From Eledone cirrhosa (lineage: Eukaryota): a stretch of 64,000 nucleotides of DNA. Within the stretch, counting starts at the first letter, position 1, and each line of letters begins with the position of its first letter. The notes under the pieces are model-generated. The model saw only the letters and a program-made list of their open reading frames with translations, did no database searches and was not told the DNA's origin. Position numbers and translations under genes: made by a program. This document shows positions 20,120-62,410 of this stretch, piece after piece. The stretch lies in NCBI GenBank assembly GCA_964016885.1, contig OZ024754.1:39060001-39124000 (forward strand). The letters run 5' to 3'.

Positions 20120-20218
20120 CATTGCATTAAATTATATATTAGTTAATCGAAGTGGATAGATTGATTAGCTGGATTAATATGTAGAGGTGTACAGTCTAAT
20201 GAGTCAGCCAAATCCTAC

Positions 20219-21704
20219 CTTCTAATGTCGACTGTGGTTGTGCTTCTTTAGGTTGTTCTGTAAAATTAGGACCTGTTTGTACTGTGGGTTCTGATGAGGA
20301 ATCGGGTTCTGAGGAAAAGCGGTTCTCGTTGGTGCTTGGAGTGTTATAGAAAGTAGGTGGTGCTTGTTGGTGTTTAATGGTGATGCAGTATGGATCGGGA
20401 TCGACTTCGGCTAGTTGAGGGCTCGAAATCAGAGGGGACGGTTGTTTAGGTGGACTAATAGAGGAGCTAGCCGATGTTACGACAGGTGTCGACATTAGCA
20501 GTGATGGTTGCTCAGGAATTTCATATCGCTGATGGTCAGAGTACTCAACATCATCATCATTGTCACTACCAGCGACTTGTACATCATCATCATCATCACC
20601 CGCCACTTCATGGGCTAGATCGCTTACAAACTGACCGCTAGGAGTTGCAGTCTCAACAGATGAGGCAACTTCGTCATAGCTAAAACTAGTGACAGGGGCG
20701 GATGGTGACGGCGGTTTACCTGCATCACTGGTGCTAGTAATGAAAGGATCTGAGGGTATGAATGGGGGTGAGTCCACGATTTTGCCTTCGTCGGACTGAG
20801 AAACTGTCGCAACATCGTTTTCAGCTGTAGAATCAAAGGGGGAAACTTCTGAGTGGAAGGGTGCTTGAGGGGCTGGAGATGTTTGAGATGACAAAGAGGA
20901 GGGATCTAAGGGGGAAAGTGGTGGTGCCTGGACATTATCTGAAGATTTATCAATCGCGTTGGCTGAATCAGCCACAGCAGAAGAAGTCGAGTAAACAAAA
21001 TCATTATCTTTAACCACATCTACTTCATCATCTTCAATATTATATTCGATGAGGGAACTTTCTCCATCGTCATCTTCGTCATCGTACTCGTCTTGACTGT
21101 GTTGTTGGTCCTCACCATGTTGCGATGTAAGCACAGTCTGACCTCTAACAAGACTATCATGGTCACATTTCTCATAATCATCGCTGTCAGACTCTCCACT
21201 GTCAACCTCGTCATCTTTAGACGATGGTTCAATAAAATGGTGCTGTTGTTGGTGTTGCGGTGCTGGTGGTGAATCAGACCTTCCATAATTACTATTGTCA
21301 AGATTAAAATTTTCTCCGGTGTCACGAGTATCGACTTGAACATGACTAGCATTATAGTTACCGTCATGATCAACGGGGTTAGAAGTATTATTATAAATTA
21401 GCTCACCCGGGGTATAGGATGAAGACTGAGCCGAATTGATGCTGCCGCTGCTGGTGGTATTCGAACCTGGATTAACCGTGTTGCTTGAGGTGATGTGCGA
21501 GTCAAAACCAAAGTCGTCATCCAGAGGATTAGACGAAGAAATTGATCCAGAAGACATCTGATGAGGTGCTGACGGTTGAGGTTGCAGAGGTTCCGATTGG
21601 AAAGCAGTAGAACTGTAATTATCCAAGCTGCCTAAATGGCTATCTCCGATGAGGTTGCCAACTGAATCCGGCTGGGTCATGTTATTAATACCTTCGTCAG
21701 CCAT
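20219..21704 (-). CDS. Large first coding exon of a host gene encoding an acidic, Ser/Pro-rich disordered N-terminus (possibly a long reticulon isoform)
   Basis: A 502-codon non-repetitive ORF with ATG in strong context (gagccATGG). Splice donor AG|gtagga after codon 495 (phase 1) at 20218, seven codons before the in-frame stop. No transposon motifs. The family assignment is inference only. Confidence 0.85.
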
Positions 21705-22730
21705 GGCTCGTTTGCTTTATATATTTGCGTGTGTTGCACTAATGAAATACGTAGGGTTGTTGTTGTTGTTGTTTTGTCTGAAGGCCAAATTACTAGCTCT
21801 TTCAGTAATCCTCCTCAGTTGAGAATATTTTTGTTTTTTGTGATTTTTTTTTTTTTTTTTCAGACAGGTCGACTTACTGAATGAATGAGAAAACAAGTCT
21901 TTAACCTCTCAAGATCGGTATATACAGTGGATATACACCATATACATATACAGGGTGGGGGGGGATTTGATAAATATTGGTGAATTTAAATTTTATGGAT
22001 GTATGTATGTGTGCGAGTATTTAATTTAAAATCTACACACTAAGTATATATATATATATATCCAAATATCCTGTTTAGGGAGTTTTTTGTTGTCGTTTTT
22101 TTTTTAATTTTAAAACATGCGAAAAATGAACGGATTTGTCCGTTGGTGGTTGACCCAGCGGGGTTTGTTGAAGTGTAAAGTACAGAACAGTTGTCTATAA
22201 TTGAAGTGGTGAACAACAACGACGACTACTATAATACAGCTACTGACTGACTGGCACTAATATAGAGACTGGTGGTCGTTGAGGAAGAAAGGACTACCGC
22301 AGTGAGAGCAAGAAGGGGGAGGAGGAAGAGTTAGTAGCAGCGCGGTGGGTGCAGCTTACGGAGCGGGGAATGGAGGTGGCGGTATCAGAAGTGAGTGACT
22401 GACGAGGTAGGAGGTACTTAACTTAGTAGAAGGAGGTAGTGGCGGTGTCAGTAGTAAGTGACTGACGAAGTAGGAGGCACTCGACTTAAGAGGAGGAGGA
22501 GGAGATAGTTGTGGTGTCAGTAGGTAGTGTATGAGGAGGTAGGGGTAGTTAACTTAGTAGGAGGAGGTAGTAGTGGTATCAGTAGGTAGTGACAGACGAG
22601 GTAGGAGGCACTCGACTTCACTGCAGCAGCAGCAGCAGCAGAGTACTGACCTCTGAAGCAAATCAATTGGTTCTTCATATAGAAGACATTTGGCGCTAAG
22701 AAGTCCTAGCTATGGAATCCGGGCTGCAGT
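21705..22730 (-). promoter_or_regulatory. Putative 5' UTR and promoter region of the minus-strand gene
   Basis: TE-poor stretch immediately upstream of the ATG, with a locally GC-richer segment at 22260-22730. The TSS cannot be located from sequence. Confidence 0.4.
22370..22620. repeat. Imperfect ~60-bp tandem repeat, ~4 copies
   Basis: ggaggt.g.gg.ggt.tcagtag...gtgactgacgaggtaggagg.act..actt recurs four times. Confidence 0.75.
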
Positions 22731-41699: not shown

Positions 41700-41760
41700 G
41701 GAGGTGTGCATAATAAAATACATGGAACTCTTTTAACCATCTTTTGATCTTATATTATAT
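41593..41760 (+). mobile_element. Two tandem deletion derivatives of the 44984-45350 family
   Basis: tgtaggaggtg-tgcataataaaatacatggaactcttttaaccatcttttgatcttat at ~41593 and ~41696. Only the cleavage-site end of the hammerhead remains. Confidence 0.75.
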
Positions 41761-44330: not shown

Positions 44331-44896
44331 GGATGGGAACCTGAGCTAGAGTGATGGGATTACAACCACTGATGGATGTTGTGAGGTAAAATGGAATGTG
44401 AGGGTTAGGTCATGTGTTGAGGAAGGATGTAAGTGAGTGGGGGGAAAAGAATAATGGAAATAGATGTGGAAGTAAGTAGAGGAAGGGGAAGACCAAGAAA
44501 GATATGGCTGAAGGTAATGGAGAGAGAAATGGAAGCCAAGGGTGTCTAGTAGGAGTGATGCAGAAGATAGGACAAAAAGCTTGTCATGGAGCTTGGAAAA
44601 CTAATTCCTGTTTTGTGTGCTGTTTTTGTAGACCTCTAGCACACTGCTAAAACCATTGAGACCTCAACAAATACAAAGCTTTGTATCGCTTGGGTGAAGT
44701 GACTGTTTCTGCGCATTCGTGTTCATACAGTTGTTCTTCCTGTTCCGTAAAGCCATGACCAGTACAAGCTGAAGATCCGCTAGCATGAAACAATTGTTCT
44801 CAGTATGGTGAACTAACTGTTGTGTTACCACTTCTACCTAACTCGTCCCATGGACTGAGTGCTCTACCACTACGGATATTGCTTTCCAGTGTTCTA

Positions 44897-44980
<84 letters not shown>

Positions 44981-44983
44981 TAT

Positions 44984-45349
44984 ATAATATAAGATCAAAA
45001 GATGGTTAAAGGAGTTCCATATATTTTATTATGCGCATTTCAAAAACAAACATCATCAAACAATAATATTTGTGTTTTCATCAGATAAAACAGATATGTT
45101 GATTTAAAACTGCACTATCAACAAATGTTTTTTAGCCTTCATATCATGTTCTCCTGTTTTATCTGATGAAAACACAAATATTATTGTTTGATGATGTTTG
45201 TTTTTGAAATGCGCATAATAAAATATATGGAACTCCTTTAACCATCTTTTGATCTTATATTATGCATACTCCAGTCCCACAAACTGTAGAGTGCTTCTTA
45301 TCCGATATCTGCATTGCTTTATTGTACTACAATAAAACTCACCTCCTAC

Positions 45350-45350
<1 letters not shown>
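44984..45350 (+). mobile_element. Hammerhead-bearing fold-back element in (TA)n
   Basis: 110-bp inverted arms (44984-45093 and 45154-45263) around a 60-bp spacer, then a unique tail ending tcacctcctaca|(ta)n. Confidence 0.85.
45155..45225 (+). ncRNA. Minimal type I hammerhead ribozyme (antisense mirror at 45022-45092)
   Basis: Helix I tgttttat/ataaaata, CTGATGA 45163-45169, helix II, GAAA 45206-45209, palindrome ATGCGCAT, AUA triplet ending at 45217. Confidence 0.8.
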
Positions 45351-45385
<35 letters not shown>

Positions 45386-49062: not shown

Positions 49063-49584
49063 TAGATCTGGAGTGTGTGGTTTCGAGGAAATGGCTGAAC
49101 GGAATATTTCGATGCGTTTGTTTACATTTCGTCTATCGCTTAGAATTTTGTTTTTACTTGTTTAAATGCAAATATATTTCGTTAAATCAAGTATTCCAGA
49201 GACCTTTTAAACACTTTCAAATGACTTGCAGAAATATATTTCGCTTTAAATGACGTTAGGCGCCGATATATTGCGATGAATACCGGAAATAGGCGAAAGC
49301 TATCTGAATGTTTAACAATTATTAAACTAATTAAAGTTTCCATTTTAATTACTACATCATTTTGTTTTTTCCTCTATGGATATATATAAAACTGGTCAAG
49401 TTGATATTAAATTTTCGGCTTAGAAAATAACACAATCTCGTTCATTTCAATTCACCCACCTAATTATGAACTTTTGAATTCACTTTCACTTCGCGGTATA
49501 CCAACTCTGTAAATGTTATCAACTGTTATTTACTAACACAGATAATCATCGGTAATTTCCTTGCTTTCTTTTATTTTCTCAGTA

Positions 49585-50382
49585 ATGGAGACAAAGGAGA
49601 CAAAATGTATTTTCCTCAATGAGACGTTGCAGACTTTCTGTTCACGTTGTTCATCTTTTAAAGACATTTCTTATAAACACTTTTTTAAAATAGCTATTGA
49701 ACTTGGCTTGAATTTTATAGCTATCAAGACTTTAGAAGAAATACTTATGAAAAAAGACTTGGGCCATAAGCTGTATTATGTCTTCAGTGCATTCATCAGT
49801 ACCCGCTCTGACCGAACAAATAAAGAAATATGTGACGAAATTGCCGAGAGGATATCTCAGATTGAGAATGATGATTTAATGGTAGATATATTCAATGAAT
49901 TTAAACTATACCGTGAGTGTGCTGATGATGGTTGTAGCCATAAAATAGCTACCACCCTTTATCCAAATATTAAATGGCAATCTTTCGAGGAAAGTAACGA
50001 CGTTATATTATCAAACCAAGACCTTTTAATTTTGGTAGAAACAATACCTGATTCCAGCTCCACTTTTGCCAGCGAGATAGGATTATTAGACTACTATGCA
50101 GTAATTCTGAATAAGTTTCCAACAGACGAACTCGAGTGGCGTAGGAAAGTGGAAATTATCTTTAAAGGCCGAGAATTTTATACTTATCGTTTTTTAGATC
50201 TCCTTAACAATAATTATGACCAGGATAAAATTTGGGAGAAAAAGAAAATAGCGATTAAGACAGGTGTGGAAAACGAGAAGGAAAAAGAAAAAACTAAGAA
50301 AAGTGAGGAAAATACTGAGAATCGAAGTACAATTCATCAAAACACCTATATCAGAATTAGTAAAATACAATTCTCCGAATAA
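49585..50382 (+). CDS. 265-aa ORF, putative tandem death-domain-like protein
   Basis: Non-repetitive ORF with a polypyrimidine acceptor ttttattttctcag 2 nt before the ATG. Two segments have death-fold-like patterns (FKIAIELGL..IKTLEE...YYVFSAF; LSNQDLLILVETIP...FASEIGL...KFPTD). Confidence 0.65.
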   Translation: METKETKCIFLNETLQTFCSRCSSFKDISYKHFFKIAIELGLNFIAIKTLEEILMKKDLGHKLYYVFSAFISTRSDRTNKEICDEIAERISQIENDDLMVDIFNEFKLYRECADDGCSHKIATTLYPNIKWQSFEESNDVILSNQDLLILVETIPDSSSTFASEIGLLDYYAVILNKFPTDELEWRRKVEIIFKGREFYTYRFLDLLNNNYDQDKIWEKKKIAIKTGVENEKEKEKTKKSEENTENRSTIHQNTYIRISKIQFSE

Positions 50383-51840: not shown

Positions 51841-51899
51841 ATTGGTGACCCGAACGTGGGTCGAACGCGCAACCAGACAGCACCTAAGAAAATATCAAC

Positions 51900-54195
51900 A
51901 TGGGCATGTCACAAACGACAGAGGCCGAGATTTCGGAGCTGCAGGCTATGATCAGAGAGCGGGCTGGTCAAATTAAAGCCCTCTCGAATCAAGTAGAGAA
52001 CTTGACCTTTCAAACACACAGGCGACGCAGCAACATTCGATCCAGGCCTTTTCACAGTAGTCCCAGTCAAAATCGTGTGCCTGGCAACCTCTGCTGGTAT
52101 CACACAAATTTCGGCACACAGGCATCTAAGTGCAAAGCCCCGTGCTCTTTCCGGAATGCCACCCAGGGCCTAGCGACGACGTTCACGCCTGGTACTGAAA
52201 AGAAAAGTCGTCTATTTTTTATTAACGACCAGGCGACAGGCATCCGTTACCTCGTGGATACAGGAGCCCAGGTTAGTGTTATTCCTGTTTCACTAATCTC
52301 GGGCAAAAGACACCCAACCCCGTCCTTTTTGCAGGCAGTGAACCAATCGTCAATTCCGACTTTCGGGGAGAAGTCTCTGACCCTCAATTTAGGCCTGAGG
52401 CGGCGTTTTCAATGGGTGTTCGTCGTGGCAGACCTGCCGACCCCGATCCTAGGAGCCGATTTTCTCCACCACTTCAACCTTCTGGTGGATATGAAGAACC
52501 GGAGGCTTATTGACGCCACCACAAACCTCACTGTGAGAGGTATATTTACCACGCAATCCACAGTGAGCCCTGTAATTTGCCAGTCAGAGCCTTCGTGTTA
52601 CAACGGCATTCTCCAGAAATACCCAGACATCACTCGCCCGGTATTTAAGGATGGTCCCATTAAGCATAGTGTCACGCACCACATCGAGACAAAGGGACCA
52701 CCCACAGCTGCCTGACCAAGGAGACTGCCTCCAGACCGATTGAGAATCGCCAGACAGGAGTTCCAACACATGCTGGACCTCGGAATCATTCGCCCTTCCT
52801 CCAGCAACTGGTCTGCACCCCTACACCTTGTTCCAAAAAAAAACGAGAATGATTGGCAACCATGTGGGGATTATCGTGCACTTAACAATTCTACAGTGCC
52901 CGATAATTACCCTGTACCTCACCTGCACGATTTTTCCGCCTCTCTGCAAGGCGCACGCATCTTTTCCAAGGTAGATTTGGTGCGTGCATATAACCAGATA
53001 CCAATGGAGCCTGCAGACATTCCGAAGACCGCAATCGCAACACCGTTCGGTTTATTCGAATTCCTGCGAATGCCGTTCGGTCTGCGCAACGCTGCACAAA
53101 CTTTTCAGCGGTTTATTGACACCGTGTTACGCGATCTACCCTTCGTATACGCGTATATTGACGACGTACTGGTAGCAAGTGCTTCCGAGCATGAACACCA
53201 GAAGCACTTAGATCTCCTTTTCCGACGTTTGGCTGAGTACGGTATCATCATCAACCCCAGCAAGTGCCTTCTCGGCGTTCCTTCACTGTCCTTTCTCGGG
53301 TACATCATCGATAAAGACAGCATTCGTCCACTTCCCGAGAAAGTAGAAGCTATCCGCAGTTTTCCCGCACCTACATCACTTCGGAAACTGCGTGAATTCC
53401 TCGGTCTGGTGAATTTTTATAGGCGGTTCATCCCTCATTGTTCCGATGTAGCCAGACTGCTCACGGACCTTCTTCGTAACCAGACTCGCAAAAACGAAGA
53501 GATCACTCTAACCGAGGAAGAATTAACATCTTTTAACCGCCTGAAGGAAATATTGGCAAACGCTTCCATGCTCGTTTTCCCCAGGTCTGGTGCTCCTCTT
53601 TCGCTGCTAGTGGACGCATCAGACACGGGGGTTGGAGGCGTTCTACAACAACATGTCAATGGCGTGTGGCAACCCTTATCCTTCTTTTCTAAGCGGTTGC
53701 AACCGGCAGAAACGAAATACAGTACCTTTGGCCGCGAACTCTTGGCAACCTATCTTTCGGTTAAGCATTTTCGGCACATGCTCCAAGGATCAGATTTTGT
53801 GATCTACACGGACCATAAACCATTAGTTTATGCGTTCCGTACCAAACCTGATAGACATTCACCTAGAGAACTCCGACACCTGGATTTTGTCTCCCAATAT
53901 TCAACTGATATTCGGCATATCAAGGGATCAGACAACGTAGCAGCCGACGCACTGTCCCGAATCCAGCTGAACGCAATACATGTGCATTCAGGCATCGACC
54001 TTCAACAGATCGCAGCTGACCAAGAGTCTGACGAAGAGTTTATCAAGCTCCGAGATTCGCCATCCCTCAAGTTTCAGCAAGTTCCCATTCCTTCTTCTCC
54101 GGGACAAATTTGATGCGACTTTTCTACCGGTCATGAACGACAGATGCATCGTCGACAAGTTTTTTCTGCTTTACACTGCTTGTCTCACCCGGGAA
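51900..54195 (+). pseudogene. Ty3/Gypsy gag-pol remnant: gag C-terminus, protease, RT, RNase H, truncated before the integrase core
   Basis: CWYH...[44 protein letters not shown]...[16 protein letters not shown]. In-frame stop at 52713-52715. Breaks off at ~54195. Confidence 0.95.
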
Positions 54196-57869: not shown

Positions 57870-60800
57870 TATATAAATAATGTTGAAATAAAACAGTCTA
57901 AATCTAAAATACATGCCTACCTGAAAAGTCATTCTTACCAGCTAAAAAACCACAATGTTTCAAATGTGGAAAAAACACACATTTAAAAACATTTTGCCCA
58001 ATGCTACATGCGGAAAAACAAAAGAAGGCATTGCTGCCAACCCCAAAACCACAACAGACACACCTGAAAACAAAAAACACAACCTGCAAACCATCAACAT
58101 TCACCCAACCATCACAAACCACAAAAGACACCACACCAAAAATTCCCCTGAAGGACTCTGTTGTCCCACCCCTTCCCCCTCTGCCTAACACTCCCACAAA
58201 CACCCCACCACCACACAACATACCCCTCCCACCTACCCACAATGATAACACCTCTGAGACGGGAACCTCTACATCTCCAAGTGAGGATGAAGAGGAACCC
58301 CAAAAATCCAAGAAGCAAAAAAGACAGAAAAAATACAAAAACAAAAACAGAAACAGAAAACACGCACACACTTAACACTGACATAAACATACCACTACAA
58401 ACGACAACCACACCAACAACACAACCAAACACTTCACCAACAAAACAAACACCCACACCACTACAATCACAAACCCCAACCACAAAATGAAAACTACAAA
58501 CAAACAGTACACATAAAAAACAAAACACATTACACATACATAAAAACAAGAAACAAAGAATTGGTGGAAACTGTCCAAAAGGACCCCACAATCCAAACGG
58601 AAGGGAAAACCTTCCCCAACAACGCCAAACCTTAAACTAATCAGGGTAACAACCCTACAGCACGAAACATTAAAAGTGAACTTCCCACATGATGTGGGCC
58701 CCCCTTGCCAAAAACCCCTTGACTGCGTCCTGCTAAAAGGATTCCCTCCCTCCTCAAACACCCCCAATCTGCTAAAAGGTAAGTGTTCCTACCTTTTCTC
58801 CCTAACTCTTTTTCACCAACATGGCGACTATACAAGTTGGATGTTTGAATGTACGTGGCCTGGGCATGCCTTGGAAACAGGGCCAGTTTTTAAATGATCT
58901 CAGGTCACGCTGTAAAGATGTGATAGCCATCACTGAGTCCAGGATTCACAACAAGCAGCAGCTAACCCCCGTGTTCGATGATTTTGAGATCTACGCATCT
59001 CTCTGTAGCCAGGAGGTGGAGGGGGAGTTGCTGTTCTGTTTCGAAAAAACCTGGATCTCAAAGTACAGATGATTCACTTGGACCCGGAGGGCAGCCTGGT
59101 GGTCCTGGACGTGAATGGTAGTGAAGGTGGAGCTTTCAGACTGGGGCCGTATATGCCATGACTGGGACATCGCGACCAGAGTTCTTCAAGCATCTGGAGC
59201 TATTCCTGGGAATTTCTCGCTCCTTAGTGTTAGCGGGGGACTGGAATGGCATCTTAGACACACATTGGGACTACGTAGGAGCTTGTGATAATAGAGTAGG
59301 GTGTAATTGCCTTAAAAATCTCACCAGCCAATTCCAACTGGCTGATAGATATCGACTAGACTTCCCAAGTGCACCACTGTGGACGTGGAGCAACTGCACT
59401 GGGTCTTCTAGATCGTATTTAGATAGATTTTTAATTAGACAGAATGATAAGGAAACATTAAGCTGTTCACAAATGCACATGATTGCCTATTCAGACCACA
59501 AATTAGTCACCTGCATAAGCAACCTTGATAGAACACATAGACAGGGAACCGGATACTGAAAGCTAAACATGTCACTCCCGGCGCGTAAGGCCTACAGTGA
59601 ACAGATTAACACCTTAGTTAAGAGCTAGTTGACGGGGGCCATCGTCAACACAAGTAGTGGAGCTCTCTCAAGAGAACAATTAGAATAGAATCGATAGCAT
59701 TTAGCAAGGAAGTAGCTTTAGAAAAAAACAAAACTGAAAAGAAACTGGTAGAGGCACTTAGAAATGGCAGTACAGCTGACGTGCTAATGGCGAGAATGGC
59801 ACTAGACCAGTTCTTCAACGTGAAACACGAAGGTTGTATTGTCAGAAATAGAACACGTGCTCTAAGAAACGAGGGAGCCAAGGCTGTTAGCTGGGCCCAA
59901 GTGGCAACAAATCCACAATTTGGTTTTTGAAAGACAAAGATGGACGCATTCTACTTGAATCCAAGCAGATGTGCACGGCCTTCCAGCAACACTTTGCACA
60001 ACTGTTCGGGCAAAGCAATACGTTGAGTGAGGTGGACTTCAGTTCCTACCACGACTCTCGAGCAAGGATGCAGAGAGCTGCAAAAGGCCAATCACAGCAG
60101 GTGAAATAGAAGATGCCCTAGGTTGCTGTGGGAAATGCAAATCACCCAGTTTAGATGGTCTACCCTATGAGTTTTACATAGGCATGCCAGACTTGTTCTC
60201 TGGCATCCTCAAAACGGCCTACTGCAATTAGCAGCAGAACGGGAGGATTCCCAGTTCTGTAGGCAGAGGCGTAGTAATGCTGATCAGGAAAGATGAGAAC
60301 AAGGGGAATGAGATAAGCAATTTCAGGTTCATAACTCTGCTCAACATAGAATTAAATATTTTGGCCAAGGTGTTAGCAACAAGGCTGGCACTTGTCGAGA
60401 ACCTGGTAGGGGAAGCACAAACATGTGCAATCCCGACCAGGTCCATACACGACAAGCTCCACCTCATGCGATACATCATAGAGAAGGTAGTGTGTAAACC
60501 TGGCTTCGTAGGGGCTCTGATCAATTTAGATCAGTTTAAGGCATTTGTTAGGGTCGACCATCAATACTTGGAAGTGGTTCTCAAGGCGGCCAGCTTCAGT
60601 CCCATCTTCAGAGGCTGGATCGCTGCCATATACACCAGCATCTGCTCGGCAGTCAAGGTGAATGGCTACCTATCGGAGCCATTCCAAATCATTTCATCCG
60701 TTAGGGATGCCCTCTCCTCCAATCTGTATGTACTGATTCTTGAGTCATTACTGCGGAAGGTGGAGCTGTTGCAGGGCATCCTAATTGAACCAGGACTGCG

Positions 60801-62410
60801 AAAAGCAGCGTCGGCCTATGCCAACAACGTAACCGTAATGGTGTTGAAAACCTTGGAAATCGGGATAATCCGCAACCTATTACAGGAATATGAAATGTTG
60901 ACAGGAGCAAGACTAAACCCAAACAAGTCTGTTGGTTTGCAACTCAGCAAATGGAGAGGCAAACCCATACCTTCTGACAGTGCCGTTGGACGGAAGGACC
61001 GGTGAAATTGATCGGGGTCTGGTTTGGTCCAGACCTCCAGGTGGACAAGAACTGGAATGAGGTCACGGCGAAGGTGTTTGCACTCACCCAGAAGTGGGCT
61101 GAGTGAAAACTCTCCTTGAAAGGTCGAGCGGAGGTGGCGAACACTTACATAGCGTCCGTTATCTACTACCGCTTGACAGTCGTGCCTTGCCCCCGCAAAC
61201 ACCTCACCAAAATGGAACGCCTACTCTTCAAGTTCCTCTGGAAGAAACAGGCTCCATTGGTGAGGAGATCCATCTGCTGTCAACACCCTTCTAACGGAGG
61301 GCAGGGCATGCCGTGGCTGATGATGCGCAAACATGCGCTGAGGCTACGCCACCTCCAGATATTTCTGACCGGTGAACTGGTATGGCTGTCGTTTGTGAGA
61401 CAAGCTCTTCCACAACTCATCTCACTAACAGAGCTGCAGTCCTGGGTCAAGCGAAGACCGAAAATGGGCGCCTGGCTTCTCGAGTGCTTTCAGGCACTCA
61501 CAGTGGTCTACCAAGCAGAAACGGCAATCAACGGAGACTCCACTTCGACAGTCTATAGAGGATTAGTGGAGGATAAGTGCGACGACGTTCTCGGGGAAAC
61601 TCTAGGCGTCGAGGAGGGCCTATGGATAACTTCCAGAGGTCTCTGGCCTGGCAGTGCTACCGAGGAGCTCTACCAGTTCAAGACAAAATCTACAGGCACA
61701 GACGCCCTGGCAGAGATCCTGCCAAAAGGACCTGTCCAAGATGTGAATAGGACATCGAAGCCGTTCTGCACGCAATTGTTCAGTACCCAGGAGTGACCAA
61801 CCTGTGGAATTATGTCGAACAGCTACTGTCACGTGTAGGATGCATCCAGTTGTCAGCCGAGTCCATCATGTGGTTCACCCACCGTCTTCATTTAAGAATG
61901 AAGGAGAGGCAGTTTTCCTCTGTCTGGTGGCTATGGCGAAAGAGGTAATATGGTGGACGAGGTTAAAAGGACTGGAGGGCAAACACCTTTCTCTCCGGAC
62001 AAAAACTCATCCACTTCTTTAAGTACCACTTCAGAAGGAAGGTGAGAGTGGAGAGAGAGGTGCTACACCCCAGTAAATTCGCTGAAAGGTGGGTGAATGT
62101 GGCGAAAATGGCCCGAGTGAATGGGCCTTCTCTGTAAATAAACCTGTAGGTTGAGGAAGATAAACAGAGGGAAGACGAGAACACCTACAAAACGTGTTCC
62201 TGGTGTTGAGGGGTGTTCTATCCATGGGGTGTAAAACAACCCCACATTAATGTCCCCCCCCCACCCCCACCCACCCTAATGGGGATTTCGATTGTTTTAT
62301 TTTATATATAGTTTATTATCATTCATTATTGTTAGAGATTTTATGTAAAACCCCTACCGTCATGTCTTGTAATGTTTCATTTTTGTACGCCCCTGTGGCA
62401 AATAAAGAAA
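57870..62410 (+). mobile_element. L1/Tx1-clade LINE, decayed: ORF1 C-terminus + full-span ORF2
   Basis: ORF1 zinc knuckle CFKCGKNTHLKTFC at ~57955. ORF2 from ATG 58821: CLNVRGL, AITES, LAGDWN, YLDRF, SDHKLV (APE), then RT (FRFITLLN..NILAKVLATRL, LDQFKAFVRVDH, AYANNV). Many stops and frameshifts. AATAAA at 62401. Confidence 0.92.

What the first reader, a model, noticed from the sequence alone, without database searches (positions are those of the whole stretch)
44984..45350. Cleanest ribozyme: intact hammerhead on both strands of a 110-bp inverted repeat
Seen: helix I (tgttttat/ataaaata), intact CTGATGA and GAAA cores, an 8-nt palindrome ATGCGCAT as helix III, and an AUA cleavage triplet ending at 45217. 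The inverted arm places an identical ribozyme on the minus strand. The diverged copy at 8233-8303 keeps the core and palindrome unchanged, has a full 8-bp helix I and differs mainly in the helix II loop. Inference: that pattern suggests selection on the fold. A transcript from either strand would contain one ribozyme plus its antisense, so it could either self-cleave or collapse into a dsRNA hairpin.
Basis: partly seen in the sequence, partly recalled or inferred. Interest (0 to 1): 0.75.

Follow-up and report, generated by a model that had tools for sequence, protein, structure and literature searches.

The report
Two-armed Penelope insertion carrying a hammerhead
This mirror-shaped repeat is one of many thousands of short, non-coding copies of the end repeat of a Penelope-type jumping gene, which carries a hammerhead ribozyme motif as such elements usually do; the mirror shape is likely a by-product of how the element is copied into DNA, likely from the still-uncut front end of its RNA.

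Summary
In detail: a perfect 110-bp inverted repeat puts the same type I hammerhead motif on both strands. It is not a stand-alone ribozyme locus. The unit is the pseudo-LTR of a young Penelope-like retroelement with Hydra-clade motifs; copies elsewhere in the genome carry an intact 800-aa ORF with RT and GIY-YIG folds. More than 14,000 arms match the motif exactly. In 57 of 66 sampled head-to-head pairs one arm ends at a short and one at a long fixed 3' end, in (TA)n. Hammerheads in inverted pLTRs are published, and this scan noted two-armed Penelope insertions on other DNA of this genome. Selection on the fold has modest support: lineage-shared stem changes keep pairing, but none is two-sided and rare changes hit the core like the flanks. 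A read-through RNA would zip into a hairpin (about 93 kcal/mol against the ribozyme fold), so the 'cleave or collapse' switch is unlikely. One addition: 57% of arms stop at one initiator-like base, often with an extra G, whereas under 5% can stop at the cut site. This suggests that short copies come from capped, uncleaved RNA. Cleavage and expression were not tested.

The parts
44902..44983 (.). (CT)n(TA)n microsatellite, left side of the insertion site
   Evidence: sequence
44984..45093 (-). Short arm: pLTR positions q61-q170 in inverted orientation, 5'-truncated, ends at the family's short 3' end
45022..45092 (-). Hammerhead motif of the short arm (core starts 45084, predicted cut after 45030)
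   Evidence: cleavage not tested
45093..45094 (+). Head-to-head junction; 45094 = q1, the fixed 5' stop of the family and likely transcription start; the G at 45093 is shared with the short arm and could also be a cap-derived G
45094..45351 (+). Long arm: whole pLTR plus tail (q1-q258), 2 differences from the pLTR in front of the intact ORF in L033
45155..45225 (+). Type I hammerhead motif: helix I 45155-45162 with 45218-45225, core 45163-45169, helix II 45170-45205, GAAA 45206-45209, palindrome 45209-45216, predicted cut after 45217
   Evidence: cleavage not tested
45264..45351 (+). Tail (q171-q258): the stretch between the two fixed 3' ends; in full elements it runs on into the 5' leader of the ORF
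45352..45382 (.). (TA)n, right side of the insertion site
   Evidence: sequence
8168..8338 (+). Second, older two-armed copy (93% identical): 12-nt inverted long-arm stub (8168-8179) joined to a short arm q7-q167 with the hammerhead motif at 8233-8303
41594..41655 (+). Tiny two-armed copy of the same family (long-arm stub plus about q117-q170), without an intact hammerhead
41697..41758 (+). Second tiny copy, a local duplicate of the one before

Best explanation
This is a short, non-coding, two-armed insertion of the pseudo-LTR of a young Penelope-like retrotransposon with Hydra-clade motifs, whose inverted repeat was likely made during integration when both ends of a cut (TA)n target primed reverse transcription on the same, likely capped and uncleaved, element RNA. 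Shown: the unit is the pLTR of a 3.7-kb element with an 800-aa RT-GIY-YIG ORF; insertions are head-to-head with one short and one long 3' end; 5' ends pile up at q1 and not at the hammerhead cut site; the two arms share lineage variants. Inferred: the endonuclease cuts (TA)n; two RT starts at about q170 and q258 copy back towards the RNA's 5' end; the two cDNA ends are joined by microhomology or a few added bases; q1 is the transcription start. The hammerhead is maintained for its role in the full element (likely slow, dimer- or protein-assisted processing of pLTR-ORF-pLTR transcripts), and is a passenger at this locus.
For: L032 and L033 hold an unbroken frame of 821 codons (800 aa from the ATG) next to the unit; L033 reads pLTR(q1-258), ORF, 0.9-kb 3' UTR, pLTR(q1-170). 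The predicted structure (mean pLDDT 80.9) matches RTs, best Foldseek row TERT 3du5 at E 9.9e-08, and residues 673-778 match the GIY-YIG domain of I-TevI (Z 9.3, rmsd 2.4, 89 aligned). Motifs RLRW, DKT, YRDD, CxCx5C, CxxC..E, N..CxH fit the Hydra description (PMC8557442 section 11). 14,145 exact matches to the core pattern and 15,161 to two anchors outside it, 0 for the reversed controls. In 78 loci: 57 of 66 head-to-head pairs are long + short; 3' ends cluster at q167-176 and q258. 7,074 of 12,419 arms that reach q1 lack the templated upstream bases, while only 967 of 20,415 arms lack q121-124; 0 of 34 5' ends inside the pLTR are at q125. 38 pairs reach q1 with both arms: 21 stop/stop, 17 through/through, 0 mixed (p 3e-11). 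Discordance at 19 lineage sites is 2.0% within insertions and 28.9% between. Neither arm is always nested in the other (short further 29, long further 8, same 19, 1 unresolved). In vitro a Poseidon PLE cuts and extends both strands, starts at two internal sites that bound the tail, and uses unprocessed RNA (PMC11167929, parts 1-2 read).
Against: No RNA data bear on the start site, cap or cleavage. The G before q1 is not clean: of 28 distinct G junctions read by eye, 6 fit microhomology with the partner arm, 6 are symmetric and ambiguous, and some of the other 16 could come from repeated copying of q1-q8. A CATATG palindrome at q0-q5 can by itself explain 6 of the 21 stop/stop junctions. 9 of 66 pairs are not long + short. 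A strong RT pause at q1 is not excluded. The tail is about 88 nt, longer than the 30-40 bp in print. The clade rests on motifs and a by-eye comparison with the published Hydra proteins, not on a tree. The sample comes from the first 43 Mb of one contig and needs exact anchors, so it favours young copies.
Confidence: 0.85

Rival explanations
1. A locus-specific RNA switch: the palindrome is kept by selection so that a transcript either self-cleaves or folds into dsRNA.
For: Arms are 110/110 identical and both motifs are intact. A read-through RNA would be a long perfect hairpin and so a possible Dicer or ADAR substrate (inference).
Against: Identity is expected of a young insertion: 18 of 50 sampled arm pairs are identical. 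Thousands of copies share the layout with different junctions. Rare substitutions hit the core at 0.42 per site against 0.50 in the flanks, as for unselected copies. In read-through RNA helix I has probability 0.0.
Confidence: 0.04
2. Self-priming (snap-back) on one template, as proposed for rotifer Penelope palindromes: one arm is a copy of the other.
For: Arms share lineage variants; CATATG palindrome and microhomology at junctions; the model is in print (PMC3846280 discussion).
Against: Snap-back needs one arm nested in the other; either arm can reach further 5' (29 against 8) and some pairs do not overlap at all (L083: q179-258 with q1-170). Some junctions have the extra G on both arms (L003, L028, L089).
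Confidence: 0.07
3. A non-autonomous element in its own right (MITE-like fold-back or retrozyme) that spreads as a fixed palindrome.
For: Short palindromic copies are the commonest form (21 of 38 pairs that reach q1).
Against: Junctions differ from copy to copy; ends are asymmetric; there is no tandem array of monomers; the unit is continuous with an RT ORF.
Confidence: 0.04

Closest known systems
Hydra clade of C-terminal EN+ Penelope-like elements (Craig et al. 2021, PMC8557442; passages, section 11 and supplement parts 1-2 plus search hits read)
   Same: RT followed by GIY-YIG; DKT, CxCx5C, CxxC and CxH motifs; (TA)n targets; hammerhead with palindromic helix III in the pLTR. Penelope-13_HM is listed there with a 5'-truncated inverted copy and the same hammerhead on both strands.
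   Different: A different family: its hammerhead matches none of the listed Hydra motifs (A-U closing pair and 36-nt helix II, AU...AU helix III, against AC...GU in the listed ones); RW is followed by T, not K; unit about 3.7 kb against generally under 3 kb; tail about 88 nt.
[quoted passage not shown]
   Same: Type I motif in the pLTR, palindromic helix III for a dimer, most copies in truncated elements; the paper reports pairs 100-700 bp apart on opposite strands and low activity in vitro.
   Different: Longer helix I (8 bp) and helix II; lacks G10.1-C11.1.
Poseidon element PAc of Anolis (Frangieh et al. 2024, PMC11167929; parts 1-2 of 4 read)
   Same: Both target strands cut and extended; two internal RT starts that bound the tail; hammerhead cleavage not needed for insertion and protein-assisted.
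   Different: Other clade; there the hammerhead overlaps the start codon, here the ATG lies about 210 nt past the cut site; a fixed 5' stop with an extra G is not described in the parts read.
L1 twin priming and the extra 5' G of full-length L1 insertions (PMC11702581; passages read)
   Same: Second RT primed from the other target end gives an inversion; an extra G marks a capped 5' end.
   Different: In L1 the two parts barely overlap and priming is at the poly(A) tail; here both arms start internally and overlap by up to 170 nt or more.
Animal non-LTR retrozymes (bioRxiv 10.64898/2026.07.22.740005; passages read)
   Same: Non-coding hammerhead repeats related to PLE pLTRs.
   Different: Retrozymes are tandem arrays of a monomer; this is a truncated copy of a coding element.

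Membership tests
EN+ Penelope-like element | Single ORF with a telomerase-related RT | tested here: met
   800-aa ORF in L032/L033; YRDD motif; fold matches RTs, TERT first in Foldseek. Pfam has no match for this ORF.
EN+ Penelope-like element | GIY-YIG endonuclease | tested here: met
   Model residues 673-778 align to I-TevI 1ln0, Z 9.3, rmsd 2.4, 89 of 92 residues.
EN+ Penelope-like element | pLTRs in partial tandem or inverted layout, one-sided tail | tested here: met
   L033 partial tandem; 57 of 66 pairs long + short.
Hydra clade | DKT in place of DKG | tested here: met
Hydra clade | RWK motif | tested here: inconclusive
   RLRW is present but followed by T.
Hydra clade | CxCx5C linker; CxxC and CxH around the conserved E and N; no CCHH | tested here: met
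   CNCRIKNKC, CNLCLNE, NRR..CLH; no second Cys inside the GIY-YIG stretch (read).
Hydra clade | Insertion into (TA)n | tested here: met
   Flanks.
Hydra clade | Placement in the clade by RT phylogeny | not tested
   Published reference proteins were seen in the supplement and compared by eye only.
PLE-type type I hammerhead (palindromic helix III) | CUGANGA and GAAA cores, NUH site, helices I and II, palindromic helix III, located in the pLTR | tested here: met
   palindrome duplex -10.5 kcal/mol.
Canonical type I hammerhead | G10.1-C11.1 pair and short helix II | tested here: not met
   A-U closing pair, 36-nt helix II in 100 of 100 arms at q77 and q112.
Canonical type I hammerhead | Match to an Rfam hammerhead model | tested here: not met
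   None at gathering score or at E up to 10.
Any hammerhead ribozyme | Self-cleavage at H17 | not testable with these tools
   Needs in vitro assay or raw RNA reads.
Non-LTR retrozyme | Tandem direct array of a short non-coding hammerhead monomer | tested here: not met
   No such array in 108 loci mapped; direct repeats are spaced by the element body.
MITE / fold-back DNA transposon | Fixed symmetric terminal inverted repeats and uniform interior | tested here: not met
   Asymmetric ends and variable junctions.

The most novel reading that the evidence does not exclude
The family's junctions record the Penelope replication cycle: one RNP copies a single RNA twice, from two starts 88 nt apart, into both ends of a (TA)n break, and there are two template classes. 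The capped, uncleaved 5' end of the mRNA gives the short palindromes (over half of the arms, marked by a cap-derived G at an initiator), whereas hammerhead-processed and re-joined (circular) RNA gives the long and greater-than-unit coding copies. A deliberately weak hammerhead would then set the ratio of dead to live copies.
Probability: 0.3. Interest if true: 0.6.

Novelty: new member of a known kind. Interest (0 to 1): 0.3.

Why it matters
As a ribozyme find it is ordinary: hammerheads in inverted PLE pLTRs are in print. What the hammerhead does in PLEs, and which RNA the RT copies, are stated as open in PMC8557442 and PMC11167929. This young family, with intact ORFs and thousands of independent junctions, gives sharp predictions: start site at q1, RT starts at about q170 and q258, no RT stop at the cut site, both arms from one RNA. 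These can be tested with CAGE, RACE and the published in vitro PLE assay.

Tried and rejected
Rfam: no family at gathering score; E-value hits are miRNA and snoRNA models matching the hairpin or (TA)n, far below their thresholds, and were rejected. Pfam and PDB sequence searches did not recognise the parent ORF; the fold searches did. Whole-window repeat search was swamped by microsatellites. Run search: no RNA holder listed; contigs of two runs of unrecorded kind laid on the locus show a very high-copy repeat and nothing on strand, start or cleavage. The protein atlas gave no answer for the C-terminal part. Covariation: 0 of 27 pairs change on both sides and the observed values do not exceed the shuffles. 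Core conservation is significant against the 16 nearest flank sites (0 of 18 against 7 of 16, p 0.002) but not against all other pLTR sites scored (19 of 137, p 0.13). Five of the 7 pair-keeping changes are A/G, which A-to-I editing or plain transition bias could also give. The twin-hairpin lead (e1-8804728) was only partly seen: a hairpin begins just after the short end (-5.3 kcal/mol) and a weaker, unlike one about 5 nt after the long end (-3.8). Target-site duplications could not be read in (TA)n. Paper searches for a cap-derived G or capped template in PLEs and a search of the scan's notes returned none; subscription papers, bioRxiv supplements and the unread parts of the cited papers may hold it. 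PMC7353768 (passages) was not relevant.

Full report
1. The observation. The arms 44984-45093 and 45154-45263 are exact reverse complements over 110 bp around a 60-nt spacer, and a type I hammerhead descriptor hits three places in the window: 45163 (+), 45084 (-) and 8241 (+), with H17 at 45217, 45030 and 8295. Shuffled windows give 0.01 such hits (100 shuffles). The motif is atypical: helix I 8 bp, a 36-nt A/U-rich helix II closed by A-U, and an 8-nt palindrome that gives only 2 bp in a monomer but an 8-bp duplex (-10.5 kcal/mol) between two copies. Rfam has no hammerhead match even at E up to 10. I number the plus-strand unit q1 (45094) to q258 (45351); the cut site is q124/q125.

2. It is the pLTR of a coding Penelope-like element. 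A DNA search of G000 gave 63 matches from 40 scored of 215 candidates. Upstream of the unit, L032 and L033 hold an unbroken frame, 800 aa from the ATG. L033 reads pLTR with tail, ORF (ATG at q337), about 0.9 kb of 3' UTR, pLTR ending at q170; its first pLTR differs from the window's long arm at 2 of 258 bases. Pfam does not recognise the protein. A model built on 25 sequences (mean pLDDT 80.9) matches reverse transcriptases, with TERT first in Foldseek (rows in the second search are led by DRT2, CART and DGR RTs with TERT tied within 1 Z), and its C-terminal part matches the GIY-YIG domain of I-TevI (Z 9.3). The motifs RLRW, DKT, CxCx5C, CxxC..E and N..CxH are those given for the Hydra clade (PMC8557442 section 11), except that RW is followed by T. 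The 27 homologues found are 30-38% identical. No tree was built.

3. The inverted layout is the family rule. Exact patterns match 14,145 places (core-based) and 15,161 places (anchors outside the core), with 0 for the reversed controls. I fetched 78 loci around the first matches listed (first 43 Mb of contig C1). 3' ends cluster at q167-176 and at q258, each running into (TA)n. Of 66 head-to-head pairs, 57 are long + short, 5 long + long, 1 short + short and 3 have another end. The window's copy (short arm q61-170, long arm q1-258), the copy at 8168-8338 and the two stubs near 41600-41760 all follow this plan. Inverted 5'-truncated copies with a one-sided tail are standard for PLEs (PMC8557442 passages); hammerhead pairs on opposite strands 100-700 bp apart were reported in 2014 (PMC4209133); and Penelope-13_HM is listed with one hammerhead on both strands (supplement). 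Earlier notes of this scan describe the same two-armed plan for other families in this genome; I checked it here independently.

4. How the arms were made. Within an insertion the arms differ by 1.5% (50 pairs, 18 identical) against 6.0% between insertions, and by 2.0% against 28.9% at 19 lineage sites. Either arm can reach further 5' (short 29, long 8, same 19, unresolved 1) and some pairs do not overlap, which argues against one arm being a snap-back copy of the other (the model in PMC3846280, discussion read). It fits two primings, one from each target end, as seen in vitro for a Poseidon element that cuts and extends both strands and starts at two internal sites bounding the tail (PMC11167929). 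That step is inferred.

5. Which RNA was copied. Of 12,419 arms that contain q1-q19 exactly, 5,345 continue into the templated upstream bases and 7,074 (57%) do not. Among 38 pairs in which both arms reach q1, 21 stop on both sides, 17 run through on both sides and none is mixed. At the cut site, only 967 of 20,415 arms (4.7%) lack q121-124, a figure that includes ordinary mutation, and none of 34 5' ends inside the pLTR is at q125 (nearest q128 and q130). The genomic base before q1 is C, in the context TTC-ATAT, which fits the metazoan initiator consensus (recalled, from no call); D. virilis Penelope has an internal, initiator-type promoter in its pLTR (PMC2377424 section 15 and passages). 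Of the 7,074 stopped arms, 2,329 have G before q1, 2,417 have A or T (25 of the first 100 listed are A, counted by eye) and 2,328 have C by subtraction. An extra G marks capped 5' ends in L1 insertions (PMC11702581 passage). Against this: of 28 distinct G junctions, 6 fit microhomology with the partner arm, 6 are ambiguous, and slippage on q1-q8 could explain some of the remaining 16 (by eye); the CATATG palindrome explains 6 of 21 stop/stop junctions. I put about 0.6 on q1 being the capped start. If so, short palindromes such as this one come from the uncleaved 5' end of the transcript, and long or greater-than-unit copies (L033, L075, L076, L084, L091) come from tandem read-through or circular RNA; my data do not separate those two.

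6. Selection on the fold. In 100 arms chosen by anchors outside the motif, variants shared by 4 or more arms occur at 0 of 12 core sites, 0 of 6 palindrome sites, 1 of 16 helix I sites, 8 of 36 helix II sites, 7 of 16 flank sites, and at the free core position N7. All 7 shared stem changes keep pairing; T-to-C occurs at 2 U-G sites and 0 of 18 U-A sites (p 0.005-0.03). But no pair changes on both sides and the structure does not beat the shuffles (45 rows, the 43 gap-free haplotypes of 50 plus the two window copies), the core is not significantly better kept than the rest of the pLTR (p 0.13), and five of the seven changes are A/G. Rare changes fall on core, helix I and flanks alike (0.42, 0.38, 0.50 per site). 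So any selection acted in the source elements, and inserted copies decay.

7. What a transcript of this locus would do. On either strand the antisense arm comes first, and forcing the hammerhead fold costs about 93 kcal/mol; helix I probability is 0.0. Expression was not tested.

8. Verdict. A real hammerhead motif and a real inverted repeat, explained as a young truncated two-armed insertion of a new family of a known PLE clade. The locus is ordinary. The family's junction statistics add a testable point on an open question, the template of the PLE RT and the role of its hammerhead. Interest 0.3.

Noticed in passing
window 44760-44890: Another very high-copy repeat directly left of the insertion, with hammerhead-like cores (CTGAAGA at about 44769, GAAAC at about 44788) resembling published Hydra motifs; a different family.
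   Followed up: no
window 32211-32726 and about 33020-33075: C-terminal fragment of another PLE (two Cys inside a GIY-YIG-like stretch, HxxxxH), followed by a hammerhead-like core pair; no Pfam match.
   Followed up: partly
window 7806-8080: Another fold-back or duplicated repeat in (TA)n just left of the second copy; a related stretch lies in L032.
   Followed up: no
L033, L075, L076, L084, L091: Greater-than-unit arms (pLTR, body, pLTR), as expected from a circular or tandem read-through template.
   Followed up: partly
L160, L164, L165 junctions: Short reiterated copies of the first 5-20 bases of the pLTR at the junction, as if the RT slipped or re-primed at the RNA's 5' end.
   Followed up: no
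L033 ORF residues 577-653: Low-confidence, Asn/Ser/Thr-rich linker between RT and endonuclease, recalling the Asn-rich inserts of rotifer PLEs (PMC3846280).
   Followed up: no
window 185-1366, 37845-39968, 51888-54113, 59125-61796: Other retroelement remains: two RTE-like LINEs, a Gypsy-type pol and an L1-like LINE (class names recalled, Pfam shows RVT_1 and RNase H only).
   Followed up: no
window 20196-21716 (-) and 49546-50382 (-): Long open frames that look like host exons (506 aa acidic low-complexity; 278 aa without a Pfam match).
   Followed up: no
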